The notes beneath the pieces were generated by a model. It ran no database searches. It saw nothing but the letters and a program-made list of their open reading frames with translations, and was not told the origin of the DNA. Shown piece after piece: positions 16,101 through 32,200 of a stretch of DNA of 61,376 nucleotides; within the stretch, counting starts at the first letter, position 1, and each line of letters begins with the position of its first letter. The DNA is from a virus. The stretch lies in the IMG/VR virus record IMGVR_UViG_3300037483_000245; one strand, 5' to 3'. A program made the position numbers and the translations under genes.

Positions 16101-16171
16101 ATATATAGGACTGCGCGTACTTTTTTGCTTAAAGGAAACCGTGCCTGCCTTGAAAACTCTGAGGAGTCATA

Positions 16172-17372: not shown

Positions 17373-17374
17373 TC

Positions 17375-18194: not shown

Positions 18195-18481
18195 GTGGAG
18201 GGTACAGATTAGGCTGGAAGTGGGAGGAGCAGGTCGTAGCTCCTCAAGTGGCACACATGCTTGACTCTATTGACTTCTCGGACTGGAAGTTCACGCAGCA
18301 TACCATCTACAGCCCTGATGGACGCTTCCGCTGGTGGATTGGGCACGGCTTGAAAGAGTTTAAGGACTACGTTACCAGGGTTCCATTTCTCAGCCTGCTC
18401 ACACGTGCGGAACGCAAGTACCTTTGGAAGGTTCTGACGAAGCAGCTCCGCAGGAACGCTTTTAAGGAGCTTTGTTCATGA
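18191..18481 (+). CDS. hypothetical protein (96 aa)
   Basis: ATGA overlap with the upstream stop. Confidence 0.55.
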   Translation: MSGGYRLGWKWEEQVVAPQVAHMLDSIDFSDWKFTQHTIYSPDGRFRWWIGHGLKEFKDYVTRVPFLSLLTRAERKYLWKVLTKQLRRNAFKELCS

Positions 18482-19251: not shown

Positions 19252-19373
19252 CTATTGCGACAACTGTTGCTGACATCATTGTAATTGCTGCTCTACTATT
19301 TCATCTTGCGGTGGTTTCCGCGATCATATATGGGTTGTTCAAGGTGATGAGAGATGATGACGAGCAAGGCTAA
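19248..19373 (+). CDS. 41-aa single-TM peptide
   Basis: ATGA overlap. MTIATTVADIIVIAALLFHLAVVSAIIYGLF. Confidence 0.45.
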   Translation: MTIATTVADIIVIAALLFHLAVVSAIIYGLFKVMRDDDEQG

Positions 19374-19548
19374 AGAGAAGACGTGGAGAGGGCAACTGCC
19401 GTGCCAGCCAGGTATGCACGTCTTCCTAGCGCAGCGTGTGGAGAAGGGCTACTTCGTGGATTATCACTGCTGCTTCTGCGGGATGTTTTCCATGATGCCT
19501 GACGAGGACGGGTTCATTGCTTACGGAGCTGAAGGAAGATGGCACTGA
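19354..19548 (+). CDS. hypothetical Cys-containing protein (64 aa)
   Basis: ORF track. Confidence 0.5.
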   Translation: MMTSKAKEKTWRGQLPCQPGMHVFLAQRVEKGYFVDYHCCFCGMFSMMPDEDGFIAYGAEGRWH

Positions 19549-19787
19549 AGGAAAAGAAGAAGACAGTCTCGATTGCTCTGTCCATGGACTACGAGGTTTT
19601 CGAAGAAGTAAAGAGAGAGCTTCTGTTAAAACTGGTGACCGGCAACCTTTACAGCACCGTTGATGATTTCACAGTAGCACTCCTACAGGCTATTGAGCGC
19701 GAGCAGGCAGACGTGCATCTTTACAGGCGGGAACCGGTAGAGAAGAAGAAGCCGAGAAGGAAGAAGCGCGTTGGCACTGAAAGCTAA
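19539..19787 (+). CDS. hypothetical protein (82 aa)
   Basis: ORF track. Confidence 0.55.
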   Translation: MALKEKKKTVSIALSMDYEVFEEVKRELLLKLVTGNLYSTVDDFTVALLQAIEREQADVHLYRREPVEKKKPRRKKRVGTES

Positions 19788-19977
19788 TGACGTCGTGCAG
19801 TGGACAGTCAGGCAACTGCACGACAGGCCGAAGAGAGTGAACGCTCAGTACGTCCGCTCGTTCGCCAGCGGCACCTACGATGTCCTTCGCGATCAACAGC
19901 CTGTGGCAGTGAGGGGGTTGTCCAAGAACGGGTTCATTGAGCTGGTGATACTGCAGTACTTTGATGAAACAGACTAA
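19771..19977 (+). CDS. hypothetical protein (68 aa)
   Basis: ORF track. Non-ATG start. Confidence 0.45.
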   Translation: MALKANDVVQWTVRQLHDRPKRVNAQYVRSFASGTYDVLRDQQPVAVRGLSKNGFIELVILQYFDETD

Positions 19978-19980
19978 GAG

Positions 19981-20118
19981 ATTCAACGACCACGGTGGGG
20001 CGCGTTGCCCCTTTACACACATCGTTCTTTGCATTGCACCTGGGTTAGCATCATGTTGTGCTGCGATAACACGGCTGATGCGGTGAGGTTTTCATCCGTG
20101 TTGACGTGGTCGTTGAAT
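19981..20118. other. 138-nt element closed by a perfect 14-bp inverted repeat (ATTCAACGACCACG / CGTGGTCGTTGAAT) with internal hairpins
   Basis: Arms at 19981-19994 and 20105-20118. Inner hairpins GGGGC/GCCCC and ACACGG/CCGTGT. Confidence 0.6.
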
Positions 20119-20135
20119 GAAGTACTGGAGGGGAT

Positions 20136-20447
20136 GTGAGAATATCAGAGCTGGCGGATACGTACACAGGGCAGTACAGAGTGCTACTTCAAGACTTGAC
20201 CACCGGTGAGATGCGCTGGTACCAGCCTTCCTACCCTTGGCATGAGGCCTCTGAGTTTTGGTGGACCGAGGGTAACGCTGGGTGCAACTGTAACCGTGCG
20301 CTGTTCTTTACTAAAGCTGCTGGAGAGCAGATCGCTGAGGATATTCAGTACGCAGCTTGCGTAGATGACGCTTTCCCTGATGGTATGCGGTACAAGCTGC
20401 TACGCATAGAGACGCTAGATGGGGGCGTGTTGCTGGAGAAGGAGTAA
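20136..20447 (+). CDS. hypothetical protein (103 aa)
   Basis: ORF track. GTG start after GGAGGGG. Confidence 0.6.
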   Translation: MRISELADTYTGQYRVLLQDLTTGEMRWYQPSYPWHEASEFWWTEGNAGCNCNRALFFTKAAGEQIAEDIQYAACVDDAFPDGMRYKLLRIETLDGGVLLEKE

Positions 20448-20450
20448 CTG

Positions 20451-20630
20451 ATGCGTACATTTGCGGCGCTGGCTTTAGCTTTAGCCATGTTTGTAGTAAC
20501 GTTTATCCTGCTGTTCTACGTTCTCGATCCTGAGTTGTTGGAGCTTCTCCTCTGTGCTGCTGCGGGCTGGGCAGTGGGCGGCTGGTGTGTACGCTCTTCG
20601 GCATGGTTGTTGAAGAGAAAAAAGGAGTAG
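20451..20630 (+). CDS. 59-aa two-TM membrane protein
   Basis: Hand translation MRTFAALALALAMFVVTFILLFYV...AAGWAVGGWCV. Confidence 0.45.
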   Translation: MRTFAALALALAMFVVTFILLFYVLDPELLELLLCAAAGWAVGGWCVRSSAWLLKRKKE

Positions 20631-20633
20631 TCA

Positions 20634-23258
20634 TTGAAAGTCAAAGGTGAAGGCCGCTGCCCTGCATCAGTCATGCTGATCGGTGAAGCGCCTGGAGTCG
20701 AAGAGGACAAGACCGGCCGCCCATTCGTAGGTGCCGCTGGAAAAGAACTCGACCGCTTCCTGCGCCTCGCTGGCCTCGACCGGCGAGAGATGTATCTCAC
20801 CAATCTTCTCAAGCACCGTCCACCTGGCAATCGTGATCCTCTCCCTGAGGAGATCGCTGCTGCGGAGGACGAACTCCTTGACGAGATCGAAGCCGTCAAC
20901 CCGCGCATCATTGGCGCCATTGGCCGCTTCTCTCTCCACTGGTTACTAGGCGACGATAAGCAGGACATCACCAGCGTTCACGGCATCGGCATTCGTGCTG
21001 TCACCACTCCCTGCGGCGAGGAGCGTATTGTTGTCCCCATCATCCACCCTGCTGCTGGTCTCCATTCCCCTGAGCAGATGCAACTCACCTGTTACGACAT
21101 CCAGCAACTAGGGAGGATCAAGCGCGGCGATCTGCAGCAGGTTGTGGGAGAGTCCACGAAAACAAAGACTGCTGGATGGCTCAACTCTACAACTTTGCCC
21201 CTCTCCATCGACACCGAGGGCTGGCCAGGGAAGATGTGGGGGATGAGTTACAGCCAGTGGGAAGGTGGTGGTCGTGTCCTCCGTGACCGCTACGATCTCG
21301 ACGTCTTCTTCGACTGGCTAAATCGTGACCATACCGGCCCCATCATCATGCACAATGCCATGCACGACATCGCGGTCCTCGACGCCGAGGGCTACCATGT
21401 CCCCGCTGAGCGTCTCGTTGACACCATGGTGCTTGCGTACAACCTCCGAGTTGAACCGCAGGGACTCAAACCTCTCGCATTCCGGCATGCTGGCATGCTC
21501 ATGTCCAGTTACTCGGAGATCGTCGCCCCTGCCGAGAGGGAGATCGCTGAGACCTATTTGGACGCCGTCCTCTCCCGCGGCGAGTGCCCCAACTGCCACG
21601 GGTGGCGAGAGATCACCGAACCCAAGCGCAACGGCGGGATCAAATGGGTCAAGTGTCCCGTCTGCAAAGGCGACGGCACCTACTGGCAGACGGGTGGTGA
21701 GCGGCTTGTCTGGCAAGGGAACGTCTCCAAGATCTACACGCCGCACGGGATTGGCCGCCGCGTCTCATCCATCCTCGACGACCTCAAAAAGGATCCCCTT
21801 CTCGACATCCGCAAACGCTGGACGAACATCGACGCCATCGACCGTGCCCACGTCGAACGGGAACTAGGACCCATGCGAGAGCCGGAACTGACAGACGTCG
21901 AGGAGTCCACCGCAGTCTACTACTCCGCTCGTGATGCTGACGCCACCCTTCGTGTCTACAACGCCCTCAATGTTCGTATCAAGGAAGCAGAACTGGAAGA
22001 CGTGGCCGCAATGGACAACGCCATTCTCCCCATCATCGCCCGGATGGAGAAGGTGGGCATCATGATCGACAAGGCCCACTTCGCCGCTCTCCATAACGAT
22101 CTCGTTGAGATGAAGGATGGCGCCCTGTGGAAGTTGAAGAGGCTGATGGGGGAAGATATCAACCCCAACTCGCAGCAGCAGGTGACAAAGCTCCTGCATT
22201 CGATGGGCGTGTCGGCCGGAAGGAAGACCAAGAGCGGCGGTGACTCGACAGACAACAAGACACTGGAGGCGTTGAAGCTGAAGTACTCGGAGCACCGGCA
22301 ACTCATTGAGGCCATCGACCTCTTGCTTGCGTATCGTCAGGCGGACAAGATTGATGGAACGTACGCCGACAAGTTGCCACAAATGGCAGATAGCCGCAAC
22401 AGAATCCACACCCGATTCAAGCTGACAAGAACAGAGACTGGACGGCTGGCAAGTTCTGATCCAAATCTTCAAAACTGCCCAACTCGTACCCCGTTAGGCA
22501 TGAAAATCCGTCACGGCTTCATCGCTTCTCCTGGTAAGATCTTCGGCTCATGGGACTACGACCAGATTGAGATGCGCCTGCTTGCTATCATGTCGGGCGA
22601 CGACAACCTCATCCGTGTCTTCAACGAGAACCTCGACATCCACGCGATGACGGCCAGCCTCGTCTTCCGCGTCCCTTTGGAAGAGGTGACCAAGTCGCAG
22701 CGCACATCGGCAAAGAACATTGGCTTCGGAGTCGTGTACGGCGTGTCGCCCAAGGGACTCCGCGAGCAGATGGACCTGCGTGGGCAGAAGTGGACAGAGG
22801 CTGAATGTGCTGAACTCATTCGCCTGTACCTGGAAGAGGCCTACCCTGGCGTCGGCGTGTACATGCGACGGATGAAGGCGATGGCACGGCGTGAGCTTCT
22901 CGTGCGTGACATGTTCGGCCGCATCCGCTACCTCCCGGCGGCGGGCAGTCAGATCAATCGCATTCGTGAGGAGGCGCTGCGGCAGGCGGGGAACATGCCC
23001 ATCCAGTCCGCCGCGGCAGGAGTGCTGAAACTGGCAATGGCAGAGATCTGGCACGACACCCTTCCCATCCTGCACCAGAGCATGGACATCGAGTGCCTCC
23101 TGAATGTGCACGATGAACTGGTGTTTGAGTTCGACGAGGGGAATGAAGAGTTGGTGGACGCAGCGATCAGTGAGACCATGAGCGGAGTGCTGGGCGAGAC
23201 GGCTGTACCGCTTGGATGCTCTGGGAACTTTGGGCATACGTGGGGAGAATTGAAATGA
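20634..23258 (+). CDS. polA: Fusion protein: UDG-superfamily (family 4/5-like) domain, 3'-5' exonuclease and family A DNA polymerase
   Basis: N-term GEAPGVEEDKTGRPFVGAAG and HPAAGLH (UDG motifs). Pol motifs DYDQIEMRLLA, RTSAKNIGFGVVYG and VHDELVFE. TTG start after AAAAGGAG. Confidence 0.85.
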   Translation: MKVKGEGRCPASVMLIGEAPGVEEDKTGRPFVGAAGKELDRFLRLAGLDRREMYLTNLLKHRPPGNRDPLPEEIAAAEDELLDEIEAVNPRIIGAIGRFSLHWLLGDDKQDITSVHGIGIRAVTTPCGEERIVVPIIHPAAGLHSPEQMQLTCYDIQQLGRIKRGDLQQVVGESTKTKTAGWLNSTTLPLSIDTEGWPGKMWGMSYSQWEGGGRVLRDRYDLDVFFDWLNRDHTGPIIMHNAMHDIAVLDAEGYHVPAERLVDTMVLAYNLRVEPQGLKPLAFRHAGMLMSSYSEIVAPAEREIAETYLDAVLSRGECPNCHGWREITEPKRNGGIKWVKCPVCKGDGTYWQTGGERLVWQGNVSKIYTPHGIGRRVSSILDDLKKDPLLDIRKRWTNIDAIDRAHVERELGPMREPELTDVEESTAVYYSARDADATLRVYNALNVRIKEAELEDVAAMDNAILPIIARMEKVGIMIDKAHFAALHNDLVEMKDGALWKLKRLMGEDINPNSQQQVTKLLHSMGVSAGRKTKSGGDSTDNKTLEALKLKYSEHRQLIEAIDLLLAYRQADKIDGTYADKLPQMADSRNRIHTRFKLTRTETGRLASSDPNLQNCPTRTPLGMKIRHGFIASPGKIFGSWDYDQIEMRLLAIMSGDDNLIRVFNENLDIHAMTASLVFRVPLEEVTKSQRTSAKNIGFGVVYGVSPKGLREQMDLRGQKWTEAECAELIRLYLEEAYPGVGVYMRRMKAMARRELLVRDMFGRIRYLPAAGSQINRIREEALRQAGNMPIQSAAAGVLKLAMAEIWHDTLPILHQSMDIECLLNVHDELVFEFDEGNEELVDAAISETMSGVLGETAVPLGCSGNFGHTWGELK

Positions 23259-23301
23259 CCACCCTTGACTCCGAGTCAACACCTGTGGTAGGATATTCTG
23301 C

Positions 23302-23712
23302 ATGATGAAGAATGGCAAACCGACCGTGGAAGACATTCTGGGAACCGCAACATCCAAGGTGCCGAGTTACGAGGAGTACAAGGAACTCAAGCGGGCCAAG
23401 TTCCGCCGTCTGGCAGATAAGGCCATCGAACTCAAAGCGACCATGGACAGCGCCAAGGCAGAGTACGACAAGACCAGAGAACTGATCGAATCCATTCTCA
23501 TGTCCGCAGATGCCAAGACGATCGCGTATAATGGGTGGCAGATCGGCATCACGGAAGGCCGCAGTGCGCCGAAGTTCGACAAGCAGGCTCTGGTCATGCG
23601 GCTGCTCGCCGAAGGGGTGAGCGACAAGGTCATCAAGGCCGCCGTGGCTGACGCAACGACACCGGGCAAAGAGTGGACCTCAGTGGCGCTCAAGAAACTC
23701 AAGGAGGACTGA
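23302..23712 (+). CDS. hypothetical protein (136 aa)
   Basis: ORF track. Confidence 0.6.
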   Translation: MMKNGKPTVEDILGTATSKVPSYEEYKELKRAKFRRLADKAIELKATMDSAKAEYDKTRELIESILMSADAKTIAYNGWQIGITEGRSAPKFDKQALVMRLLAEGVSDKVIKAAVADATTPGKEWTSVALKKLKED

Positions 23713-24227
23713 TGTTCAGACGTTTGCTGTTGTGTCTACTGCTGCTGTCTCCGCTGGCCCCCTTGTGGGGCCAGTCTCGTCCTGACAATCCAACTCCTTT
23801 CACGCTGCGGGGGTTCATTGTGCCCATCGCCTACCCGATGCCAGAGTTCCGCACGAACGTCCTCCTCACGATCAACTCGGACATCCCCGAGACGGCTGCG
23901 GTCCAGATTACCGCGGACAGCCCCGTGATCGCTGTGGACCTCTATCGTACTCATGACGGCTGGATCGTTGCCAATCGTAAAGCCTGGGTAGACGTGCGGT
24001 ACATCCACCTCTCTCAGGATCCCGTCTGGCTGCGCCGCGCATACGGCTCGACCTCTGTGAGCCTGAACAATCTGCTGCAGGTAGAGGCTGGGGATATCGT
24101 AGTCATTGAGCCTCACCCTCTCCTCATTCAGCAGATCGTCGTATCCGTCATCGACAACAAGTCGAACGACCCGTTCGGATGGTCGTTCGGGGTCAGTACA
24201 ATCCAAGTGAAAAGGAGAAATGAATGA
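23712..24227 (+). CDS. secreted protein with cleavable-type signal peptide (171 aa)
   Basis: Internal ATG after AAGGAGG. MFRRLLLCLLLLSPLAPLWGQ. Confidence 0.6.
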   Translation: MFRRLLLCLLLLSPLAPLWGQSRPDNPTPFTLRGFIVPIAYPMPEFRTNVLLTINSDIPETAAVQITADSPVIAVDLYRTHDGWIVANRKAWVDVRYIHLSQDPVWLRRAYGSTSVSLNNLLQVEAGDIVVIEPHPLLIQQIVVSVIDNKSNDPFGWSFGVSTIQVKRRNE

Positions 24228-24586
24228 AAAGATACGCAGGATGGTTGCTGGCGCTGCTGCTCCTTGCCGGATGCAGTCAGCTTCAGCAGGCGGGACAGAG
24301 GTATGTTCTGACCGAGTTTGAGATTGCCAAGCTGGAGTACACGACGCTGTCGAACGACTACGCGGTGGCCCGGGAGACCATCCGGCAGCAGCGGGTGGCT
24401 GGCGAGATCGACGACAACGGATGGGCCGCATTTGTCACTTTGCAGCAGGAAGTCCAGGACGTGGCCATCGAGTTGATCAACCTGAGAAAGGGCTGGGAAG
24501 CGTCGGGCACGAAACCCCAGCGATGGGACGGCGCCATGTCTGAGCTTCGGTCCAAGATTGAAAGTGTGGAGGCGCTAGCACGATGA
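24224..24586 (+). CDS. lipoprotein (120 aa)
   Basis: MKRYAGWLLALLLLAGC has the lipobox LLAGC. Confidence 0.6.
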   Translation: MKRYAGWLLALLLLAGCSQLQQAGQRYVLTEFEIAKLEYTTLSNDYAVARETIRQQRVAGEIDDNGWAAFVTLQQEVQDVAIELINLRKGWEASGTKPQRWDGAMSELRSKIESVEALAR

Positions 24587-25053
24587 GATGGGAAGACCTT
24601 ACACCTGCCCAGCGTGCTGCGATGATCAGTGCGCTCAAGATGATGCTGACGATGTTCAAGGACTGGTACAGGACGGGGCTGATGCAGTACATTGATGCTG
24701 ATGCCCTGACCCGAGCAGATGAGGTGTTCACGGATGTCCAGTTGGATCCTCTGCCATCCTCGCCCCCGCCACCGGTCGAACCGCCTCCTGTTGAGCCTCC
24801 TCCTGTGACACCTCCGCCAGTCGATCCTCCTGGCGAGCCACCACCGCCAGTGATCGACGATCCGCCCACGAGCAAGTACAACGTCCCCTTCACAGAAGAG
24901 CCGGACTGGTCTGAGTATGAGGACGGGGATCAGGCGTTCGGCGACTGGGCAACCCCCACTGTCTGGATCGTTGTCGAAGCTGGCAAGCGCCCGTTCCTTC
25001 CTACCACGGTCCGCTATTCTCTGGGCATTGTGCGTGCTGGGGTTTTGGTGTAG
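24583..25053 (+). CDS. hypothetical protein with proline-rich PPPV(E/T/D)P repeats (156 aa)
   Basis: ORF track. ATGA overlap. Confidence 0.55.
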   Translation: MRWEDLTPAQRAAMISALKMMLTMFKDWYRTGLMQYIDADALTRADEVFTDVQLDPLPSSPPPPVEPPPVEPPPVTPPPVDPPGEPPPPVIDDPPTSKYNVPFTEEPDWSEYEDGDQAFGDWATPTVWIVVEAGKRPFLPTTVRYSLGIVRAGVLV

Positions 25054-25111
25054 AATAGCCCCGTGTATAGGGCTGCCCGTCCTCCTCGTTCCGGGTAGCC
25101 TCCTCCAGCGG

Positions 25112-25146
25112 AAGGGGTGGCAGAGATGTCACCCCTTCTTTTTTCA
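25112..25146 (+). terminator. Rho-independent terminator
   Basis: 8-bp stem AAGGGGTG/CACCCCTT with a 10-nt loop, followed by CTTTTTTC. Confidence 0.7.
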
Positions 25147-25165
25147 CCTTGTCTAATTTTAGTGC

Positions 25166-25195
25166 TTGACTGCCCGGCAAGTTTTCGAGTACACT
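25166..25195 (+). promoter_or_regulatory. sigma70-like promoter TTGACT-N18-TACACT
   Basis: Hexamers read directly, immediately after the terminator and upstream of the ncRNA/Ro locus. Confidence 0.5.
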
Positions 25196-25226
25196 ATTTG
25201 TGCTGGTTGTTCTTTGACAAGTTGCT

Positions 25227-25349
25227 GGTAACCTTCATGGAGTGGCAGAGGCTCTTCCGTTTCCGCCTTCGCTCAAGCGGTGCATTCCTCCTTCTCGTCA
25301 TTGGAAGACCCCCTTACTACACGCCCTCTGCTGCTTCCTGAAGGTTATC
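25227..25349 (+). ncRNA. Candidate structured RNA: 123-nt rod whose ends form a 25-bp stem (Y-RNA-like architecture)
   Basis: 25227-25251 pairs with 25325-25349 (1 mismatch, 4 G-U). Inner stem TCTTCC/GGAAGA and hairpin CCGC/GCGG. Confidence 0.4.
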
Positions 25350-25351
25350 AA

Positions 25352-25483
25352 CTCGGTGGTGTAGAGATCAGTTACTTCGACTCATAATCGAGTGTCGTTG
25401 GTTCGAGTCCAACATGGGCACAATACGCCCATTAGCTCAGCTGGTTAGAGCGCTAAAATTTCTGGTTTCGCTGATTCCCCGAG
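25352..25483 (+). ncRNA. Circularly permuted tRNA-like RNA (YrlA-type Y RNA candidate)
   Basis: Anticodon-like hairpin with CUCAUAA loop, T arm GTTGG-TTCGAGT-CCAAC, closed acceptor hairpin ATGGGC/GCCCAT, D arm GCTC-AGCTGGTTA-GAGC. The whole is closed by CTCGG(T)GG/CCCCGAG. Confidence 0.5.
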
Positions 25484-25493
25484 TGTTCATTCT

Positions 25494-25564
25494 GGTGTGT
25501 GGCGCAGAGTACGGTTACTTCGCCTATTGGTAGTGTTAATTCCGTTCTCGATGATTCCCGCACC
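25494..25564 (+). ncRNA. Candidate 71-nt structured unit closed by GGTGTG/CGCACC, carrying the second copy of an 18-nt motif
   Basis: End pairing and motif GCAGAGTACGGTTACTTC read directly. No tRNA cloverleaf could be drawn. Confidence 0.25.
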
Positions 25565-25575
25565 TAACATTTACG

Positions 25576-25656
25576 AGCTGGGTAGTGTAGAAAGCGGATA
25601 CTTCTTAATTGGGTTAAGGCAACGTGCCGCTCTCGCTTGTTCTCCCAGCTTTTTTC
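25576..25656 (+). ncRNA. Candidate structured unit ending in a terminator-like stem plus U-run, carrying the third motif copy
   Basis: AGCTGGG (25576-82) pairs with CCCAGCT (25644-50), followed by TTTTTT. Inner hairpins AGCGG/CCGCT and CTTAA/TTAAG. Confidence 0.35.
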
Positions 25657-25673
25657 CTTGGAAGGAGGATCCA

Positions 25674-27071
25674 ATGGCGAAGATCAACAAGAATGCAACG
25701 TCCCCGTTCAAGTCCAAGACTGCTACGACCTACGAAGGTGCGGTCGCCGCAATCTACTCCCCTGAAAAGCAACTGAAGCGCCTCACTGCTGCCCACCTCC
25801 TGTGGGAGGACACGTTCTACGTGGACGGGCAGACGGCTGCAGAACTCGTGCAGGCGGTGGCGCATCAGGTTTCTCCGCAGGCGCTGGCTGAGACGGCCAT
25901 CGAGACGCGGGAGGTGATGAAACTCCGTCACATGCCCCTGCTTCTCGTAAGGGAGTTGTCCCGCCATCCTGCGAGAGGTCTAGCCCCTTCACTGGTGTCC
26001 AACACGCTCGCTCGTGTCATCCAGAGACCTGACGAACTCACTGAATTCCTTGCCATCTACTGGAAGGGCGGCAAGCAGCCGCTGTCGGCGCAGGTGAAGA
26101 AGGGTCTGGCCAAGGCGTTCACGAAGTTCGACGCCTACCAGTTCGCCAAGTACGACCGCGACTCGGACATCAAGCTCCGCGACGTGCTGTTCATGGTTCA
26201 CGCCAAGCCGGGAGTGAAACAGTCGGACCGGCTCTTCAACCAGATCGCCACGCGAACGTTGCCGACCCCGGATACGTGGGAGACGCGCCTGTCGTCCGGC
26301 GGGGAGAAGAAGTCGGATCTCGACAAGCGTGTCCAGTGGACAGAGATGCTGGAAGGCAACAAGCTGGGCGCTATGGCCCTTCTCCGCAACCTGCGAAACA
26401 TGCAGGAGGTGGACGTGGATCGTCACGTCATCAGGAAGGCTCTGCGCAAAGCATCCGCTGAGAAGGTGCTGCCGTACCGCTTCATCGCAGCGGCCCGTTA
26501 CGCTCCGGACTTTGAGCCTGAGCTGGAAGAGCTGATGTTCTCCAGCCTCGCCCAGTTCGACAGGCTGTCGGGCAGAACGGCGATTCTGATCGACGTGTCC
26601 GGGTCGATGGACTCACAGCTGTCAGAGAAGAGTGAGATGACCAGGAAGGATGCAGCGATTGGCCTTGCCATCATGTTGCGGGAGTTGTCGGATGATGTGG
26701 ACATCTACGTCTTTGGCGATACAGCTGCCAAGGTCGCCCCAAGGCGCGGGTTTGCGCTGAGGGATGCGATTGCCCGGTCGAATGTGGGATATTCCACGAA
26801 CGGCTGGGCAGGGCTGGGCCTTGCAAACCGTGCAGGGTATGACAGGATCCTTTGTGTGACGGATGAGCAGTGGCATTCAAGCGCCTATTGGGGAAGTTAT
26901 CGCAACGACAATGTCGCTACGGCTGCCTATCCCATCATCCGCAAGCCTGCCTACATGGTGAACGTCGCGGCGTACCAGCACGGTGTGGCGTACGGGGATC
27001 ACTGGGAAGTGATCTCGGGGTGGAGTGAGGGAGTGGTGAGGTACATTGAAGCGGTGGAGAAGGAGAGTTAG
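25674..27071 (+). CDS. rsr: Ro60 ortholog: TROVE domain plus vWA domain with MIDAS motif
   Basis: Start at the ATG after GGAAGGAGG. The N-terminal region resembles TROVE proteins (LLWEDTFYVDGQ...). vWA motif ILIDVSGSMDS. Confidence 0.75.
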   Translation: MAKINKNATSPFKSKTATTYEGAVAAIYSPEKQLKRLTAAHLLWEDTFYVDGQTAAELVQAVAHQVSPQALAETAIETREVMKLRHMPLLLVRELSRHPARGLAPSLVSNTLARVIQRPDELTEFLAIYWKGGKQPLSAQVKKGLAKAFTKFDAYQFAKYDRDSDIKLRDVLFMVHAKPGVKQSDRLFNQIATRTLPTPDTWETRLSSGGEKKSDLDKRVQWTEMLEGNKLGAMALLRNLRNMQEVDVDRHVIRKALRKASAEKVLPYRFIAAARYAPDFEPELEELMFSSLAQFDRLSGRTAILIDVSGSMDSQLSEKSEMTRKDAAIGLAIMLRELSDDVDIYVFGDTAAKVAPRRGFALRDAIARSNVGYSTNGWAGLGLANRAGYDRILCVTDEQWHSSAYWGSYRNDNVATAAYPIIRKPAYMVNVAAYQHGVAYGDHWEVISGWSEGVVRYIEAVEKES

Positions 27072-27073
27072 CA

Positions 27074-27244
27074 ATGGGATTTGGAGGACTGGGAGCGCCT
27101 GAGATTCTTCTGCTTGCATTCGTTGTCGTCTTGCTCTTCGGCGGTAAGCGGATTGCAGGAATCGGCAAGGGGATGGGGGAGGGGATTGCCAGCTTCAAAC
27201 ACGGGCTGTCGAACCCTTTGACCAAAGACAACAACAAGGAGTAG
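27074..27244 (+). CDS. tatA: TatA/E-family twin-arginine translocase subunit (56 aa)
   Basis: Hand translation MGFGGLGAPEILLLAFVVVLLFGGKRIAGIGKGMGEGIASFKHGLS matches the TatA pattern (TM helix, LLFG-x-K, amphipathic helix with FK). Confidence 0.7.
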   Translation: MGFGGLGAPEILLLAFVVVLLFGGKRIAGIGKGMGEGIASFKHGLSNPLTKDNNKE

Positions 27245-27247
27245 TGC

Positions 27248-27469
27248 ATGCTGTCAAGGCGAGGCTTCCTCAAATTCACCGGCCTTGTCGCCAGTGGCTT
27301 GGTAGTAGGGATCAATCCGTTCAAGAGTCAGCCGACAGTGTTCGACACATCAAGAAGGTTCAAGATGAGTAAGGACACTGGCCTGCTTGAGGGCTTTCCC
27401 ATCGGCATTCTTCAGACTAGCGGATTCTGGAAACACAGCATACTGCTGAGCAACACCGATCAGGTATAA
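27248..27469 (+). CDS. small protein with a twin-arginine signal peptide (73 aa)
   Basis: MLSRRGFLKFTGLVASGLVVG matches the S-R-R-x-F-L-K consensus plus an h-region. Confidence 0.55.
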   Translation: MLSRRGFLKFTGLVASGLVVGINPFKSQPTVFDTSRRFKMSKDTGLLEGFPIGILQTSGFWKHSILLSNTDQV

Positions 27470-27488
27470 TAGTCCCGGGGGTTATTTT

Positions 27489-27662
27489 ATGAAGAAGAAA
27501 TGGTACAAGTCCAAAACCGTCTGGCTCAACGTGATTACTGCGATTGGCGTGTTCACGCTCAACCAGTTCGGCTACGAGATCACTGAGTATCAGACGACGC
27601 TCCTTCTCTCGCTGATCAACCTGCTTCTGCGGTCGATCACCAAGGAAGGACTGACGTCGTAG
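27489..27662 (+). CDS. 57-aa small membrane protein (holin-like size and topology)
   Basis: Hand translation MKKKWYKSKTVWLNVITAIGVFTLNQFGYEITEYQTTLLLSLINLLLRSI. Confidence 0.45.
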   Translation: MKKKWYKSKTVWLNVITAIGVFTLNQFGYEITEYQTTLLLSLINLLLRSITKEGLTS

Positions 27663-27753
27663 AGTTTGGTGGTGATAAGAGGCTACGACCTCTTCTGACC
27701 AGCCTGATCACCTGGGGCATACGGCACTAACCCTCAGATAGCCACCAATTTAC

Positions 27754-27827
27754 AGCCCTGTGGGGTAACGGCAGCCTGTGTGGCTCTGGACCACACGATC
27801 TTGGTTCAAATCCAGGCGGGGCTTCCA
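27754..27827 (+). tRNA. tRNA-Gln (anticodon CTG), CCA encoded
   Basis: Manual cloverleaf: acceptor AGCCCTG/CGGGGCT, anticodon arm TGTGG-CTCTGGA-CCACA, T arm CTTGG-TTCAAAT-CCAGG, then T-CCA. Confidence 0.75.
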
Positions 27828-27851
27828 AATTCAGGTTCTGAGTAGTCTCGT

Positions 27852-27924
27852 GTTGGTGCTAGTTTAACCGGTAGAATAGCTGACTGTGACTCAGCAGGAC
27901 AGGGTTCGAGTCCCGGCGCCAACC
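27852..27924 (+). tRNA. tRNA-His (anticodon GTG)
   Basis: Acceptor GTTGGTG/CGCCAAC, anticodon arm GCTGA-CTGTGAC-TCAGC, T loop TTCGAGT. Exact ends are uncertain by 1 nt. Confidence 0.7.
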
Positions 27925-27942
27925 CAAACATTCGGAGGAGTG

Positions 27943-28164
27943 ATGCTTGAGATCCCAGAAGACGGCGTGATCAGTTGCCCGGCATGCAGCGGGGAGATGT
28001 TACTCGTCGAGTACCACGGCATGCATGAGGACCACTATGACGGCTGGTCTGAGGTCATGTGCCCAAAGGATTTGCACGGCTGTGGTATGCGCATCGGCCG
28101 CTGGTCTGAGAAGGTGTTGCAGTCAGGTGAGTCAGAGCCGCGGTGGGGAGTTCGTCATGCCTGA
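27943..28164 (+). CDS. zinc-ribbon-like small protein (73 aa)
   Basis: ATG after GGAGGAG. The listed 27886 start lies inside the tRNA-His gene. CPACSG...CPKDLHGC. Confidence 0.55.
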   Translation: MLEIPEDGVISCPACSGEMLLVEYHGMHEDHYDGWSEVMCPKDLHGCGMRIGRWSEKVLQSGESEPRWGVRHA

Positions 28165-28417
28165 TGTCACTTCAGAGCATCTCAGCTGGTTGCTTCTGAC
28201 CTCCATGCGCTACGCCATTGGCAGGCGGACGTATGCACCGTCCTACACGGCGGAGATCATCAGGAAGCACTGGGGAGACATTAGCGCCGAGAGTAGGGCG
28301 CTGTTGCTAAGAGATCTTGATGGTGAGATTAAGGCGCGTGGGAGCTACCTTGGAGACCCTTGCGATGTAGCAACGTGGACAGCGTTGTATCAGTGGATGC
28401 TACAGAATTTGTCGTAG
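28157..28417 (+). CDS. hypothetical protein (86 aa) with SMRYAIGRRTY motif
   Basis: ATG after GGGGAG, inside ORF 28025..28417. Confidence 0.55.
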   Translation: MPDVTSEHLSWLLLTSMRYAIGRRTYAPSYTAEIIRKHWGDISAESRALLLRDLDGEIKARGSYLGDPCDVATWTALYQWMLQNLS

Positions 28418-28422
28418 TCTAT

Positions 28423-28510
28423 CTGCCCGTAGCCCAGTGGTAGGGTGCCTGTTTTGGGAATTCTCTTTCGCTCAAAGAGCGGCTCGACTAGAATCCATCC
28501 GGGCAGACCA
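28423..28510 (+). ncRNA. 88-nt tRNA-like element: 7-bp acceptor stem, U8-A9, canonical D arm and A-CCA 3' end, but no recognisable anticodon or T arm
   Basis: CTGCCCG/CGGGCAG, TA, GCCC-AGTGGTA-GGGT, internal hairpin CTCTTT-CGCTC-AAAGAG, ends ...CGGGCAG-A-CCA. Confidence 0.35.
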
Positions 28511-28513
28511 ATC

Positions 28514-28587
28514 GCCGCTGAATGCAAAGGGTGAGCACCGAGGCCTTCAACCTCGTGTACAGGGTTCGAGTCCCTGCAGCGGCACCA
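28514..28587 (+). tRNA. tRNA, probably Glu (TTC), with a non-canonical anticodon loop CCTTCAA. CCA encoded
   Basis: Acceptor GCCGCTG/CAGCGGC, anticodon stem CGAGG/CCTCG, T arm CAGGG-TTCGAGT-CCCTG, then A-CCA. Confidence 0.65.
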
Positions 28588-28589
28588 AG

Positions 28590-28621
28590 TTATACGCACT
28601 TTCGTGTAGAACTGCGTATAA
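28590..28621. terminator. Hairpin at the convergence point of the two arms (TTATACGC / GCGTATAA, 16-nt loop)
   Basis: 8-bp perfect stem. No clear U-run on either side. Confidence 0.3.
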
Positions 28622-28638
28622 CCCGGGCACCGGATACC

Positions 28639-28692
28639 TTACCGGCCTCCGCCTTTGGGGCCAGTCTTCCGCTTGATGACTTTTCTAGGCAT
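28639..28692 (-). CDS. possible 17-aa Lys/Gly-rich peptide (MPRKVIKRKTGPKGGGR)
   Basis: Strong SD AAAGGAGGTGAATGGT before the ATG. Very short. Confidence 0.3.
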   Translation of the reverse strand: MPRKVIKRKTGPKGGGR

Positions 28693-28707
28693 ACCATTCA
28701 CCTCCTT

Positions 28708-29238
28708 TCAGATTTTCCTTGCTGCCCTGTCCAACCAGCCATAGATGAAATCCAGCTTCTGCAGATTCCCCATCGCCTGCCTGGCGTATCTCTCAGCCTG
28801 ACAAGCCGACGCCGCCCGCAGCCACCAGTACTCACTGCAGAAGTCCGGCGGCTGCGACCTGCCATCAGCGAGCATGTTGAGAGCATGCACCGTGTTGTTG
28901 CCGAACCATCCATCCACGTCCACCCAGCCGGTCTTGAGAACGTTCAGAGCCTGTTGAGCGATCCTGACGCCGTTGTTGGGACCGAAGTGGACACAGAGGT
29001 CCAGCGTCTTCGTAGCAATTGGCTGACTGACCTCGCCGAACCTGGGGTGCCAGAACTCGCCCTTGTAGATCTTGAGTGCATCGTCTCTCGTGACGTCTCT
29101 GGCACTGTCAAACCCATGGCGCTTGGCAAGAGCGTTCGTGATGCCGTAGTTGGTCTTCCCGCCGGGGTCGCTGGGGTGGTTGGAGTAGCCGCCTTCGTTC
29201 TCCAGCACCCATTCGATTGCTGCCTTGAATTCTGACAT
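28708..29238 (-). CDS. Endolysin, glycoside hydrolase family 108 with PG_binding_3-like C-terminus
   Basis: N-terminal VLENEGGYSNHPSDPGGKTNYGIT is the GH108 signature. Confidence 0.85.
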   Translation of the reverse strand: MSEFKAAIEWVLENEGGYSNHPSDPGGKTNYGITNALAKRHGFDSARDVTRDDALKIYKGEFWHPRFGEVSQPIATKTLDLCVHFGPNNGVRIAQQALNVLKTGWVDVDGWFGNNTVHALNMLADGRSQPPDFCSEYWWLRAASACQAERYARQAMGNLQKLDFIYGWLDRAARKI

Positions 29239-29246
29239 ACCCTCTC

Positions 29247-32200
29247 CTACTTGAGTCTCAGTAAAACTGCTCTGGTCTGCTGTGGATCGAGGATCTTGGA
29301 CTCCATCCCGCCCTTAGGCAGTACCTGCAACTCCAGCCCGTCCATCGTAAGCGCTGCACCGATCACCCGGTCTCCGTTGGGTAGTGTCATGCCGTTCTTG
29401 AGCGAGGCAGGGGTGCCAGGTCGCCCTTTGGCTTTCTGCTCTGTATTGTACTTCTTCACAGTGCGCTGGAACAACTCGTCGCCAGAAGTGGCGGGGGTGT
29501 CTGCGGCCTTCTCTGCAGGCGGTTTCTTTGCGGCAGGCTTCTCTGTCAACTTGGGAGGAGCTTCCGCTTCCTTCGCCTTGAGCCGCGGCGGAGGTGTCAC
29601 TTTGGCTTCCTTTGCAGAGGCCTTAGGAGGAGCTTCCACCTTCTTAGGGGTAACGGTGGCCGGTGCTTCCGCTTTGGGCGCTGGAGGGGCTTCTGGAGCC
29701 ACTGCTGCAGCCTTTGGAGGCGGTGCTGCCTTCTTCCCTTTACCCTTCTTCTTGGACACCTTGGGCACTTCTGGCGCAGGGTTCAGTTTTGGCGGAGGAG
29801 TCACTTTGGGAGCCTGCATTACGCCTCCACTTCTTCTGTCCGCGGCTCTCTTTCTAGTAGGGGTGGCGGCGCTACGAGCCTCGACGACCTCTCGTGGGAC
29901 TTCGACTGTTGGGTCGTTGATGTCTACGTAGCGAATGTCTTCGTACTTGGGCGTCTTTTGCCCCCGCTGAACGGTGACGCCACCAACTTGAGCATCTTCC
30001 ACAGGAAGGACCTCTACAACACCAAGGTCGTCATAAGTGCGTCCGAAAGATCCAATACGGCCGTCTGGGAACTCCACTGTCCCTGCACGCTTACCGCCTG
30101 CCAAAGGGGCATCTGCCAGCTTTGGAGGGGGTACACGAATACCCCCTGCTTGTGGAGGGGGGGCGGTGCCTTCGACCGGTGCAGCGGCGCTACTTGCAGT
30201 AGGTGGAGGCGTAGCACCTCCTGCTGCGGCCCTGGCAGCGGCCCCTGTTGCCCCGGCTCCGGAAGGAAGCATTGAAGGCTCTATCCATTTGAGATCGTCC
30301 GGGGCCAATTGCCGCAGAAGGTTGGCAAGCCTCAACTGAGTTGCTGAGCCTCCTGCAATCTTCTTTGCCATTCCAAGCATGGTCGTACCAGCGAGGTGCT
30401 TACCTATTTTCGTTGGGTCAGCACTTCCTGGCGTAATTGATGACTGACTGAGGAGCGTAGACTTTTTACCTTCCAGATACTGCGGTTTCAGTCCTTCCAA
30501 TGCCCCCTGAACATCGGACATTTTATGGTTGAGATTCACCAACTCTGGATCAGTGACCTGATCGTCGAATGTTTTGCGAAGAGCTGTGCGGGCAGTTTTG
30601 AGGTTCTCCTCTAATGCTGCTGTTGTCTTGTTGGGGGTCTTGTTGAATGCACTCTTGTTGATCTCTTTGATCTGCTTGTCGATCTTCCTGATCAGCTCAT
30701 TTAACTCCACAGTAGACAGGTCGGTCCCAGTCGAACTGGCCTTGTCGATGTCATCCAAAACGCTCTGCAGACTGCTCTGGACTTTGCGCCGCATCCCTTT
30801 GGTGACACCGCCCGCTTTTCCAAGTGCGGAGTCTTGTGAGATTGGGCCTTTGATAGCTTTCTCTACAGTTTGCCGCAACTCAGAGATCGCAAACCTTGTA
30901 GTATCTGCTGCGGCCCTGCTCTGGAAAATGTCGTTCAGTTCGCCCAAACGCATGTTCAGGCCGTTGATGATCCCTTCCAGGTTCTGCCCGGCAATAACAC
31001 CCCTACCAACATCCAGCACGTTTACACCCATGCGGGGTGGCCCCACTGCTTCGCCTGGGCGCACTTCCATTGTCCGGGCCAGATGCTCGTCCGGTACATT
31101 CCCAAAAGCGCCTTGGGCCAAGCTACCGGCGTACTCATGGCCAAGGAATTTTCTTACTGGCCTTGTTGCCTTGACTGCACCTTTTGCGGCAGCACCCGGA
31201 GCCATCGCCAGCCCGCCAGAGGCGAGCACTCCAGCAGTGACCTGCGAGGGATCTTCAGCCTCACTGACGCTCTGTGAGATGAACGGCGCAGAATACGCCA
31301 AGGGCTGTACGTAGCCGCTTTGGAGAGCCTTACCTACAGCACTTGAAGCTGGGCGCTCCATGGCGCGTCCTACAGCCTTTGTCGCCGCGGTGACAGGCCG
31401 AGTTACCGTTCTACCAACGTTACCGGCAGCCTCTTCTGCGGTAGCCGCCATTCGTGAAAACAGAGGTTTGGAAGCCAGCCTGGATGCGCGGGCCGCTGTG
31501 GTTGAGGCTCTTGAGGTTGTACCAACGGCCCCAGCGGCCCCACCGGTGGCAAGACTGAGAAGTGCCTCCACGGCCGGAAGTGCTACATTAGTGTAACGCA
31601 GCCCAGCAGACAGGTAGTCACCTTCTTCACGAGACTTGCCAGCCTCTTTCCACTCCTCCTTCATCGGGTCGATCAGCATACCCTTGGCGGCGCTCCTACC
31701 GGTCTGGAGGATGTCTTTCCCACCTTCCAGCAGCCCGGATAGACCCTTATGTTTCTGGAAATCAGTGGACTCGATCCCTAGCTGCGGAGCGTTTGCACGA
31801 GACACAGAAAGTTCTCGTACAGCCTCTTCGTCACCCTGCTCAGCGAGCGCCTTGACCTCGGCATATCTGCGAGTCGCAGCACTCTTAAGCGTCTCCCCTT
31901 CCTGAACTTCAAGAGGAGGAAGAGCGAGCATCTGGCGCAGGGCACTGTTACGTGCGGCGCTGGTCTCTTCGTCACTGCCCCGCATACCAAGAAGGGTGCC
32001 AATACCCTTTCCCCACTCCGAAAAGGACTGCCCAATATCTTCCGAGGAACCGAACGTGGCAGCCAGTTTTGATGGAGGAGCTGCCGGGACGATCTGTTGC
32101 GCCCCCGTCTCTGGATCGGTCGCAACGGTCTGGCTGCCAATATCTCTTTCCACTCGCTGCCGTGCAGCCTCCCTGACAGGGTTGTTTGGGTCTGGCAGTG

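What the first reader, a model, noticed from the sequence alone, without database searches (positions are those of the whole stretch)
25352..25483. Circularly permuted tRNA-like RNA immediately upstream of a phage Ro60 gene
All parts of a tRNA are present, but in permuted order.
- Anticodon-type hairpin TTCGA-CTCATAA-TCGAG (25376-25392). Its loop equals the CAU loop of Met tRNAs.
- A 4-nt linker.
- T arm GTTGG-TTCGAGT-CCAAC (25397-25413).
- ATGGGC (25414-19) pairs across a 7-nt loop with GCCCAT (25427-32).
- Then TA and a textbook D arm GCTC-AGCTGGTTA-GAGC (25435-51).

This corresponds to tRNA positions 27-72 followed by 1-26. The acceptor stem is closed by a loop, and the chain break sits at the 26/27 junction. 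An outer helix, CTCGG(T)GG at 25352-59 pairing with CCCCGAG at 25477-83, has one bulged base and closes the whole module.

No complementary 5' acceptor strand exists upstream, so this is not an ordinary tRNA gene. Bacterial YrlA-class Y RNAs are known to mimic tRNA and to be encoded next to rsr (Ro60). This element has that genomic context. It also carries a complete anticodon-like hairpin, which I do not recall as part of the YrlA description. The alternative is a genuinely permuted or split tRNA that needs processing and ligation.
Basis: partly seen in the sequence, partly recalled or inferred. Interest (0 to 1): 0.8.

Follow-up and report, generated by a model that had tools for sequence, protein, structure and literature searches.

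The report
Phage Y RNA with anticodon arm
This is a phage-encoded Y RNA, a known kind of small RNA that binds the Ro60 protein and mimics a transfer RNA; it is the first of three such RNAs in a row and is unusual mainly in keeping a complete anticodon-like hairpin.

Summary
A custom covariance model scores the element at 124.9 bits, and every helix except the invariant D stem covaries in relatives.

It is a YrlA-class Y RNA:
- a Ro60-type outer helix with a conserved bulged U;
- a tRNA-like domain in the order anticodon arm, variable loop, T arm, closed acceptor hairpin, U8-A9, D arm.

It is the first of three tandem Y-RNA modules (25349-25653) directly upstream of a TROVE/Ro60 gene in a phage genome.

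The "anticodon hairpin" lies in the region that Chen et al. 2014 call the V stem-loop. In 46 of 148 Ro60-linked tRNA-like modules it is a perfect 5-bp stem with a 7-nt loop. That loop carries the anticodon-loop signature (U33 45/46, purine-37 46/46). It is followed by an AGGUC-type variable loop. The triplet itself varies freely.

The literature already describes phage YrlA RNAs, their likeness to permuted tRNAs and a dimeric-tRNA origin. This is therefore a new member of a known kind, with a modest refinement. A decoding permuted tRNA and a decayed tRNA remnant are both unlikely.

The parts
25166..25195 (+). Sigma-70-like promoter candidate, TTGACT-18-TACACT, upstream of the Y-RNA array
   Evidence: Consensus scan found 2 sites against 0.3 expected. 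It lies just after a terminator-like hairpin at 25110-25139. Function is inferred only.
25226..25351 (+). Long structured hairpin ('module 0'); possibly a divergent fourth Y-like RNA, unresolved
   Evidence: Minimum free energy -48.7 kcal/mol, z -4.73, 0 of 200 shuffles fold as well. Model R1 gives only 9.4 bits, E 0.083. No BLAST relatives in 174 loci.
25352..25483 (+). The finding: a YrlA-class Y RNA (module 1) with a complete tRNA-like domain
   Evidence: R1 124.9 bits. Rfam YrlA E 9.5e-7. Covariation.
25352..25359 (+). Outer helix P1, 5' strand CTCGG(T)GG with T25357 bulged. It overlaps the conserved GGTGGTGTAG motif (25355-25364), the presumed Ro60-binding site
   Evidence: All 7 pairs change on both sides across 148 modules, 97.3% paired. 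The bulged T is invariant in A2. The motif resembles the published GNCGAAN0-1G (PMC4201824).
25477..25483 (+). Outer helix P1, 3' strand CCCCGAG, part of the conserved TTCCCC motif
25364..25371 (+).
   Evidence: Pairs with 25462-25469. 8 pairs, all with changes on both sides in A3, 93.9% paired. Present in the minimum-free-energy fold.
25462..25469 (+). Helix P2, 3' strand CTGGTTTC
25372..25375 (+). Conserved YUAY motif (TTAC) joining P2 to the hairpin
   Evidence: GTTAC precedes the hairpin in 34 of 46 such modules. The YUAY motif is described in PMC4201824.
25376..25392 (+). Anticodon-arm-like hairpin TTCGA/CTCATAA/TCGAG. It lies in the region called 'V' in the literature
   Evidence: Aligned as tRNA positions 27-43 by the Rfam tRNA model. 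The window's real tRNAs align to the same R1 positions 28-66. Stem covaries. Loop signature U33 45/46, R37 46/46.
25393..25396 (+). Variable loop TGTC (positions 44-48, one nucleotide shorter than the usual AGGTC)
   Evidence: AGGTC in 28 of 46 modules. The last base forms the Levitt pair: G15:C48 111, A15:U48 19, Fisher 8.6e-20.
25397..25413 (+). T arm GTTGG/TTCGAGT/CCAAC
   Evidence: 100% paired, 4 of 5 pairs with changes on both sides.
25414..25432 (+). Acceptor-like stem closed by a 7-nt loop (ATGGGC/ACAATAC/GCCCAT); no encoded CCA
   Evidence: all 7 pairs covary. CCA check.
25433..25451 (+). U8-A9 (TA) plus D arm GCTC/AGCTGGTTA/GAGC; G25452 takes the place of position 26
   Evidence: The D stem is invariant in A2. 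G26 with A44 in 33 of 46 modules.
25492..25568 (+). Y-RNA module 2, short and YrlB-like with no tRNA domain. P1 is GGTGTG(T)GG 25494-25502 with CCCGCACC 25557-25564
   Evidence: R1 34.2 bits, E 5e-8. Fold.
25575..25653 (+). Y-RNA module 3, short. P1 is AGCTGGG(T)AG 25576-25585 with CTCCCAGCT 25642-25650, followed by a T-run at 25650-25655
   Evidence: R1 37.4 bits, E 8e-9. Fold.
25674..27071 (+). Ro60 (TROVE plus vWA) gene, preceded by the ribosome-binding site GGAGG at 25664-25668
   Evidence: Pfam TROVE 1.6e-11. PHROG 850 1.5e-49. Thermus phage phiRo60 structures 9L5Y/9KOP 8e-20.

Best explanation
The element is a phage-encoded Y RNA of the YrlA class.

It is probably transcribed with two shorter Y RNAs, and perhaps a fourth structured RNA, from a promoter near 25166-25195. 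The array lies just ahead of the Ro60 gene.

Its 5' and 3' ends pair into a helix with a conserved bulged U and the 5'-strand motif GGUGGUGUAG. By analogy with characterised Y RNAs, this is where the Ro60 ring binds.

A second helix (P2) leads to a five-way junction. On that junction a complete tRNA body is built from closed hairpins: anticodon arm, class-I variable loop, T arm, acceptor stem closed by a loop, U8-A9, D arm and G26. The chain enters and leaves at the 26/27 hinge.

The tRNA-like body most likely folds into the tRNA L-shape. It would serve as the effector-binding end of the ribonucleoprotein. It would recruit or compete for host tRNA-binding proteins (PNPase, modification enzymes, RNase P, possibly RNA-repair or tRNA-cleaving enzymes) while Ro60 holds the other end.

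Shown here: sequence, covarying structure, family distribution, gene context.

Inferred by homology: Ro60 binding, L-shape folding, effector tethering.

Unknown: its role during infection.
For: - Rfam's best match is YrlA, and the T arm, acceptor hairpin and D arm align at high posterior probability.
- The gene 190 nt downstream is a TROVE/Ro60 protein.
- Homologous elements lie upstream of TROVE genes in Xanthomonas phage MET23-P3 and Caulobacter phage CcrPW.
- Model R1 finds 472 Y-RNA modules in 171 Ro60 loci from phages and bacteria, all on the Ro60 strand.
- The six helices are 96% paired in A2, where five of them covary and the D stem never varies. In A3 they are 94.6% paired and all six covary. 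0 of 500 shuffles match either, and slid controls give 37-52% paired.
- tRNA tertiary logic is kept. The Levitt pair covaries (G15:C48 111, A15:U48 19). G26 with A44 occurs in 33 of 46 modules.
- The hairpin carries an anticodon-loop signature that was not used to select it: position 32 is C in 37/46, position 33 is U in 45/46, position 37 is a purine in 46/46, position 38 is A in 38/46.
- The window's three real tRNAs align to model positions 28-66.
- Published work: YrlA RNAs are bound by the bacterial Ro60 protein (Rsr), carry tRNA modifications and fold as an L (PMC4201824; bioRxiv 10.1101/312249). A Thermus phage Ro60 binds phage Y-like RNAs and host PNPase (PMC12135203).
Against: - The Rfam YrlA score (37.7 bits) is well below the gathering score (69).
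- The pairs that form the 'anticodon stem' in the Rfam model are non-canonical here.
- The 5' motif GGUGUAG differs from the published GNCGAA at two positions.
- There are no expression, end-mapping or binding data for this phage.
- It cannot be decided from sequence whether the hairpin or helix P2 stacks under the D stem.
- No RNA-repair gene was seen among the replication-module ORFs I scanned.
Confidence: 0.85

Rival explanations
1. It is a genuinely permuted or split tRNA gene. The transcript would be opened in the acceptor loop by RNase P plus 3' trimming and CCA addition. It would then work as a two-piece or re-ligated decoding tRNA-Met/Ile(CAU).
For: - Re-ordered in silico, the sequence is called tRNA-Met(CAT).
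- M. smegmatis YrlA is cut by RNase P and receives CCA (PMC4201824).
- 11 of 46 hairpin-bearing relatives encode N-CCA directly after a 7-nt acceptor strand.
- Wang et al. 2018 raise the possibility of processing towards canonical tRNAs.
Against: - This element has only 6 acceptor pairs plus an A.C mismatch, and no encoded CCA.
- The triplet changes between close relatives while the rest of the RNA stays put: GTT vs TGT in Xanthomonas phages, TAG vs CTG in CcrPW vs CcrColossus. That is hard to reconcile with a fixed amino-acid identity.
- The conserved, covarying outer helix with bulged U and the Ro60 linkage are Y-RNA features.
- The de-permutation test is weak: 70 of 102 modules without the hairpin are also called tRNA.
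- Bacteria are not known to have the splicing endonuclease used for permuted tRNAs (my own knowledge).
Confidence: 0.04
2. It is a decayed, functionless remnant of two tandem tRNA genes: the 3' part of one and the 5' part of the next.
For: - BLAST matches the junction of the tandem tRNA genes ileZ and argN in Stx2 phage 1717.
- The Rfam tRNA model passes its gathering score on the 5' part of five relatives.
- A dimeric-tRNA origin has been proposed in the literature (bioRxiv 10.1101/312249).
Against: - Compensatory changes maintain all the helices that vary across hundreds of loci.
- The acceptor strands of the two 'halves' stay complementary to each other.
- Linkage to Ro60 is strict, always on the same strand.
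- This fits an origin from tandem tRNAs, not present-day decay.
Confidence: 0.03
3. The modules are not separate stable RNAs. They would be cis-acting Ro60-binding structures in the 5' leader of the Ro60 mRNA, for example for autoregulation.
For: - The single promoter candidate lies upstream of the array.
- No strong terminator separates the array from the Ro60 gene, apart from the T-run after module 3.
- The modules abut one another, with gaps of 1-10 nt.
Against: - In Salmonella the rsr-yrlBA-rtcBA genes form one operon (PMC7790460), yet YrlA and YrlB were recovered as discrete Rsr-bound RNAs (PMC4201824).
- In R. etli the modules lie downstream of rsr, so a leader position is not required.
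- A tRNA-like fold with conserved modification sites suggests a stable, processed RNA.
Confidence: 0.08

Closest known systems
YrlA (Rfam RF02553; Salmonella Typhimurium and M. smegmatis YrlA; Chen et al. 2014, Wang et al. 2018)
   Same: - Encoded beside Ro60 on the same strand.
- Ro60-type closing helix with a 5' purine-rich motif, and the YUAY motif.
- T arm, closed acceptor-like stem, UA and D arm in that order.
- tRNA tertiary nucleotides, including a covarying Levitt pair.
- A stem-loop ('V') upstream of the T arm is described for many members.
   Different: - In the crystallised Salmonella RNA and in the Rfam model, the anticodon-stem equivalent is made by the 5' and 3' strands and runs on into the Ro60-binding stem. 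The paper states that 'YrlA lacks the anticodon loop'.
- Here the segment before the variable loop is a closed 5-bp/7-nt hairpin with U33 and R37, followed by a class-I variable loop.
- The score is below Rfam's gathering threshold (37.7 vs 69).
- The motif is GGUGUAG, not GNCGAA.
Phage Y-like RNAs: the CcrColossus and mycobacteriophage YrlAs listed by Chen et al. 2014; Thermus phage phiLo Yrl1/Yrl2 (PMC12135203)
   Same: - Phage-encoded and upstream of a phage Ro60.
- Several Y-like RNAs per locus.
- The CcrPW and CcrColossus loci contain a direct homologue of this element with the same TTCGA/TCGAG hairpin.
   Different: - The phiLo Yrls are described as stem-bulge-stem RNAs with a CGAA motif, with no tRNA-like domain reported.
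- This phage has no close relative in the phage collection searched.
Circularly permuted tRNA genes (Cyanidioschyzon merolae and some archaea) and two-piece tmRNA from permuted ssrA genes
   Same: The 3' part of the tRNA body is encoded before the 5' part, and the acceptor stem is initially closed by a loop.
   Different: - Those precursors are cut and ligated, or kept as two pieces, to give a free CCA end and a working tRNA or tmRNA.
- No splice-type bulge-helix-bulge junction, encoded CCA or processing evidence is seen here.
- The break here is at 26/27, closed by a Ro60-binding stem.
Ordinary tandem tRNA genes (for example ileZ-argN in Stx phages)
   Same: The sequence runs anticodon arm, variable loop, T arm, acceptor 3' strand, spacer, acceptor 5' strand, D arm. 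There is 79% identity over 75 nt to such a junction.
   Different: - In real tandems the two acceptor strands belong to different stems and are not complementary.
- Both tRNAs are complete in real tandems.
- Here the two strands pair with each other and the flanks form the Y-RNA stem.

Membership tests
YrlA-class Y RNA | Encoded within about 4 kb of a Ro60/TROVE gene on the same strand | tested here: met
   Ro60 CDS at 25674-27071(+), 190 nt downstream.
YrlA-class Y RNA | Conserved T arm, then a closed acceptor-like stem-loop, then UA and the D arm | tested here: met
   Covariation.
YrlA-class Y RNA | tRNA tertiary-interaction nucleotides (U8, A14, G15:C48 Levitt pair, G18G19, T-loop UUCRA, G53:C61) | tested here: met
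   All are present in the sequence. The Levitt pair covaries across 148 modules.
YrlA-class Y RNA | Conserved YUAY before the V region | tested here: met
   UUAC at 25372-25375. GTTAC occurs in 34 of 46 relatives.
YrlA-class Y RNA | 5' Ro60-binding motif GNCGAAN0-1G | tested here: inconclusive
   The window has GGUGUAG. Relatives have GGYGWAG, including GGUGAAG. This is similar but not identical to the published motif.
YrlA-class Y RNA | Reaches the Rfam RF02553 gathering score | tested here: not met
   37.7 bits against 69. No YrlA match reached the gathering score in any of the 20 related loci scanned. The Rfam model is narrower than the family as published.
YrlA-class Y RNA | Anticodon-stem equivalent formed by the 5' and 3' strands, with no anticodon loop (Salmonella structure) | tested here: not met
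   The Rfam pairs there are non-canonical. A closed hairpin with an anticodon-loop signature takes that place.
YrlA-class Y RNA | Bound by Ro60; carries pseudouridine-55 and dihydrouridine | not testable with these tools
   Needs immunoprecipitation and modification mapping.
Canonical tRNA | Acceptor stem formed by the 5' and 3' termini, with a free 3' end | tested here: not met
   ARAGORN makes no call. The Rfam tRNA model matches positions 8-63 only, at 17.9 bits against 29.
Permuted tRNA gene (processed to a working tRNA) | Processing signals (splice-type junction, encoded or added CCA) and a stable anticodon identity | tested here: not met
   No CCA in the acceptor loop. The triplet differs between close relatives: 9 of 36 triplet positions against 131 of 1735 other positions. 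Whether processing occurs is not testable here.

The most novel reading that the evidence does not exclude
The anticodon arm may be functional rather than a relic. Phage and bacterial Ro60 loci would then display arrays of tRNA look-alikes whose anticodon loops keep the tRNA rules (U33, R37, U36-A37 or G36-G37) while the triplet diversifies. These would serve as decoys or baits for anticodon-loop-directed enzymes, such as host anticodon nucleases or modification enzymes. They would tether Ro60 and its nuclease or repair partners to that conflict. In the subset with an encoded CCA, they might be processed into Ro60-tethered split tRNAs.
Probability: 0.12. Interest if true: 0.8.

Novelty: new member of a known kind. 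Interest (0 to 1): 0.4.

Why it matters
**Annotation.** These modules fall below Rfam's YrlA threshold. Their 5' parts can pass tRNA detectors.
- Five relatives pass the Rfam tRNA gathering score.
- ARAGORN of 46.
- GenBank records already carry a 'tRNA-Thr' and a 'tRNA-Gln' that are Y-RNA pieces.

Phage tRNA inventories near Ro60 genes are therefore inflated, and Y RNAs are missed.

**Biology.** The data suggest that the 'V' stem-loop of YrlA RNAs is homologous to a tRNA anticodon arm. This fits the published idea that these RNAs arose from dimeric tRNA transcripts. It also gives a concrete handle for the unanswered question of what the tRNA-like end of bacterial and phage Y RNAs binds: an anticodon-like loop with a fast-changing triplet.

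Tried and rejected
- The Rfam gathering-score scan of the window found only three tRNAs and nothing at the locus. An E-value scan was needed.
- A megablast search with 20 kb of the window (15000-35000), which includes the locus, found no close phage relative. The only match was an 84% stretch of about 120 nt inside the Ro60 gene.
- The Stx2 phage 1717 hit turned out to be ordinary tandem tRNAs, not a Y RNA.
- The in-silico de-permutation test with ARAGORN is not discriminating. 40 of 46 hairpin-bearing modules are called tRNA, but so are 70 of 102 other modules.
- A Y-like 5' motif at about 27665-27750 is not supported by the model.
- Module 0 (25226-25351) has no BLAST relatives in 174 loci and only a marginal model score.
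- Scans of neighbouring ORFs found a DNA polymerase and a helicase but no RNA ligase, PNPase or nuclease partner.
- Three reviews (Sim and Wolin 2018; Sim et al. 2020; Boccitto and Wolin 2019) are not held in the library. I cannot exclude that they already call the V stem-loop an anticodon arm.
- I looked at a UUA/UAA mini-helix between the YUAY motif and the strand 3' of the D arm. Those columns are invariant or gappy, so covariation cannot test it.

Full report
**1. The observation.**
- hairpin TTCGA/CTCATAA/TCGAG, 25376-25392;
- linker TGTC, 25393-96;
- T arm GTTGG/TTCGAGT/CCAAC, 25397-25413;
- ATGGGC/ACAATAC/GCCCAT, 25414-25432;
- TA, then D arm GCTC/AGCTGGTTA/GAGC, 25435-25451;
- outer helix CTCGG(T)GG 25352-59 with CCCCGAG 25477-83.

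ARAGORN finds no tRNA here. The Rfam tRNA model aligns only positions 8-63, at 17.9 bits, below its cut-off of 29. The minimum-free-energy fold of 25352-25483 recovers the outer helix, the T arm and the acceptor hairpin.

**2. Identity.** With relaxed thresholds the best Rfam family is YrlA (RF02553): 25365-25480, E 9.5e-7. At 37.7 bits it is below the gathering score of 69. T arm, acceptor hairpin and D arm align well. The pairs that make the 'anticodon stem' of the Rfam model are non-canonical.

The ORF starting at 25674 is a Ro60 protein:
- Pfam TROVE, 1.6e-11;
- PHROG 850, 1.5e-49;
- solved Thermus phage Ro60 structures 9L5Y/9KOP, 8e-20.

The window is a phage genome. It has a DNA polymerase and a helicase upstream, tRNA genes downstream, and no close relative in the phage collection.

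**3. Relatives.**
- BLAST finds homologues of the element upstream of TROVE genes in a group of Xanthomonas/Xylella phages and in Caulobacter phages CcrPW and CcrColossus.
- A further BLAST hit, in Stx2 phage 1717, is the junction of two ordinary tandem tRNA genes.
- Using the Ro60 protein I fetched 7 + 80 loci from viral contigs and 80 from bacterial genomes.
- An alignment of 18 elements (A2) supports a six-helix structure: P1 with a bulged U, P2, the anticodon-type hairpin, T, the acceptor hairpin and D. It is 96% paired, and 25 of 36 pairs change on both sides. No shuffle out of 500 reaches this, and slid controls give 37-52% paired. The 18 were chosen for a perfect hairpin, so pairing in that one helix is partly selected.
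- A covariance model built from A2 (R1) then finds 224 + 248 modules in 171 loci, all on the Ro60 strand.
- On the 150 best phage matches all six helices covary. The hairpin is 88.5% paired, and 4 of its 5 pairs change on both sides. That alignment is fitted to the model.

**4. The locus in the window.** R1 finds three modules in a row:
- 25349-25488, 124.9 bits;
- 25492-25568, 34.2 bits;
- 25575-25653, 37.4 bits.

The last two are short, YrlB-like Y RNAs. They have the same bulged-U outer helix, GGYGYAG motif, YUAC and UUCCC motifs, but no tRNA domain.

Upstream of them, in order:
- a terminator-like hairpin at 25110-25139;
- a promoter-like site at 25166-25195;
- a very stable 126-nt hairpin at 25226-25351 (z -4.7), which R1 matches only marginally.

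Arrays of Y modules are general. CcrPW and CcrColossus carry about eight.

**5. The anticodon-like hairpin.** Chen et al. [quoted passage not shown] They say the conserved YUAY begins the V loop. Here UUAC (25372-75) directly precedes the hairpin, so the hairpin lies in that published V region. Wang et al. 2018 (bioRxiv 10.1101/312249) state that Salmonella YrlA 'lacks the anticodon loop', its anticodon stem being formed by the two strands that lead to the Ro60 site.

My data show that in this Ro60 clade the V hairpin has the properties of an anticodon arm.
- Of 148 distinct modules with a T-plus-D core, 46 have a perfect 5-bp stem with a 7-nt loop placed 4-5 nt before the T stem. In a first scan of 117 such cores, 7-nt loops were found 33 times and no other loop length more than 6 times.
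- These 46 were selected on pairing alone. Their loops read C32 in 37/46, U33 in 45/46, a purine at 37 in 46/46 and A38 in 38/46. The middle triplet takes 17 different values.
- The linker is AGGUC in 28 of 46, a standard class-I variable loop. Its last base forms the Levitt pair with D-loop position 15: G:C 111, A:U 19, Fisher 8.6e-20.
- G26 faces A44 in 33 of 46.
- U36 goes with A37 (26 of 26) and G36 mostly with G37 (10 of 13), as in real tRNAs (Fisher 4.5e-7). Shared ancestry inflates this figure.
- The Rfam tRNA model aligns the window's hairpin as positions 27-43. The window's three true tRNAs align to R1 positions 28-66.
- In R. etli, a species used in the 2014 paper, the equivalent hairpin is reduced to 3 bp with the loop CUGUUAC.

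The secondary structure is the same under both names: a five-way junction. What differs is the homology assignment. The 3D stacking may also differ, but I could not test that.

**6. Triplet variability.** Between close relatives the differences fall disproportionately in the triplet:
- GTT vs TGT in Xanthomonas phages;
- TAG vs CTG in CcrPW vs CcrColossus;
- UUU-A vs UUG-G in L055 vs L060.

In 12 independent close pairs, 9 of 36 triplet positions differ against 131 of 1735 other positions (odds ratio 4.1, p 0.0014). This shows relaxed constraint at least. It does not prove diversifying selection. It does argue against a fixed decoding identity.

**7. Relation to tRNA genes.**
- The 5' part of several relatives passes the Rfam tRNA gathering score.
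- ARAGORN of 46 hairpin-bearing modules natively.
- GenBank annotates pieces of such modules as tRNA-Thr (phage 10KY502B) and tRNA-Gln (CcrColossus).
- Eleven of 46 relatives encode N-CCA right after a 7-nt acceptor strand. The window's element does not.

These facts fit the published model of origin from dimeric tRNA transcripts. They add that the first tRNA's anticodon arm is often retained.

**8. Mechanism.** By homology with characterised Y RNAs, the outer helix with its bulge and 5' motif binds Ro60. The tRNA-like body is the effector end. The supporting literature:
- PMC4201824;
- bioRxiv 10.1101/312249;
- PMC12135203, for a phage Ro60 with phage Y-like RNAs and host PNPase;
- PMC11482910, for a Ro60-like phage protein that counters a defence system.

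None of this is shown for this phage.

**9. Rivals.** None of the three is likely:
- a decoding permuted or split tRNA;
- a decayed tandem-tRNA remnant;
- a purely cis-acting leader.

The reasons are given under each rival.

**10. Verdict.** The element is a new, unannotated member of the known YrlA class of Y RNAs. Phage YrlAs, the V stem-loop, the permuted-tRNA likeness and the dimeric-tRNA origin are all in the literature. The refinement is that the V stem-loop is an anticodon arm with a fast-changing triplet. Together with the annotation pitfall, this gives the finding moderate interest.

Noticed in passing
window 25492-25568 and 25575-25653: Two further short Y-RNA modules (YrlB-like, no tRNA domain) follow the finding in tandem. 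Each has the bulged-U outer helix. The last ends in a T-run just before the Ro60 ribosome-binding site.
   Followed up: yes
window 25226-25351: A very stable 126-nt hairpin (z -4.7) lies between the promoter-like site and the first Y module. The Y-RNA model matches it only marginally (9.4 bits, E 0.083), and it has no relatives in 174 loci. Its nature is unknown.
   Followed up: partly
window 28514-28587: A tRNA-Glu(UUC) with an encoded CCA is found by Rfam (45.9 bits). ARAGORN finds it only at a relaxed setting. ORF 28522-29235 overlaps it, and that ORF has no family match.
   Followed up: partly
L012 1501-1568 (Xanthomonas phage 10KY502B); L013 1172-1239 (CcrColossus); L001 2998-3068: Public records annotate the 5' parts of Y-RNA modules as tRNA-Thr and tRNA-Gln, and ARAGORN calls one tRNA-Asn. 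The Rfam tRNA model passes its gathering score on five such modules, while Rfam YrlA reaches its gathering score in none of the 20 loci scanned.
   Followed up: yes
L002 2668-2836, L013 1166-1336, L091 1798-1968, Bradyrhizobium loci such as L150 1573-1734: A subset of hairpin-bearing modules encodes a discriminator base plus CCA directly after a 7-nt acceptor strand (11 of 46, against 2 of 102 other modules). This hints at recent derivation from tandem tRNAs or at processing to a CCA end.
   Followed up: partly
L141, L150, L153, L154, L160, L162, L138, L149 (Bradyrhizobium/Rhizomicrobium): These bacterial modules carry an extra hairpin between the D arm and the 3' strand of helix P2. The phage elements lack it.
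   Followed up: no
L015 1130-1202: Rfam reports a tmRNA match (65.4 bits) in a metagenomic viral contig, about 800 nt upstream of its Ro60 gene.
   Followed up: no
L175 2460-3130 (R. etli plasmid pRetIE4803a): In the classical rtcR-rsr locus the Y modules lie downstream of rsr. The hairpin before the T arm is reduced to 3 bp, with the loop CUGUUAC.
   Followed up: partly
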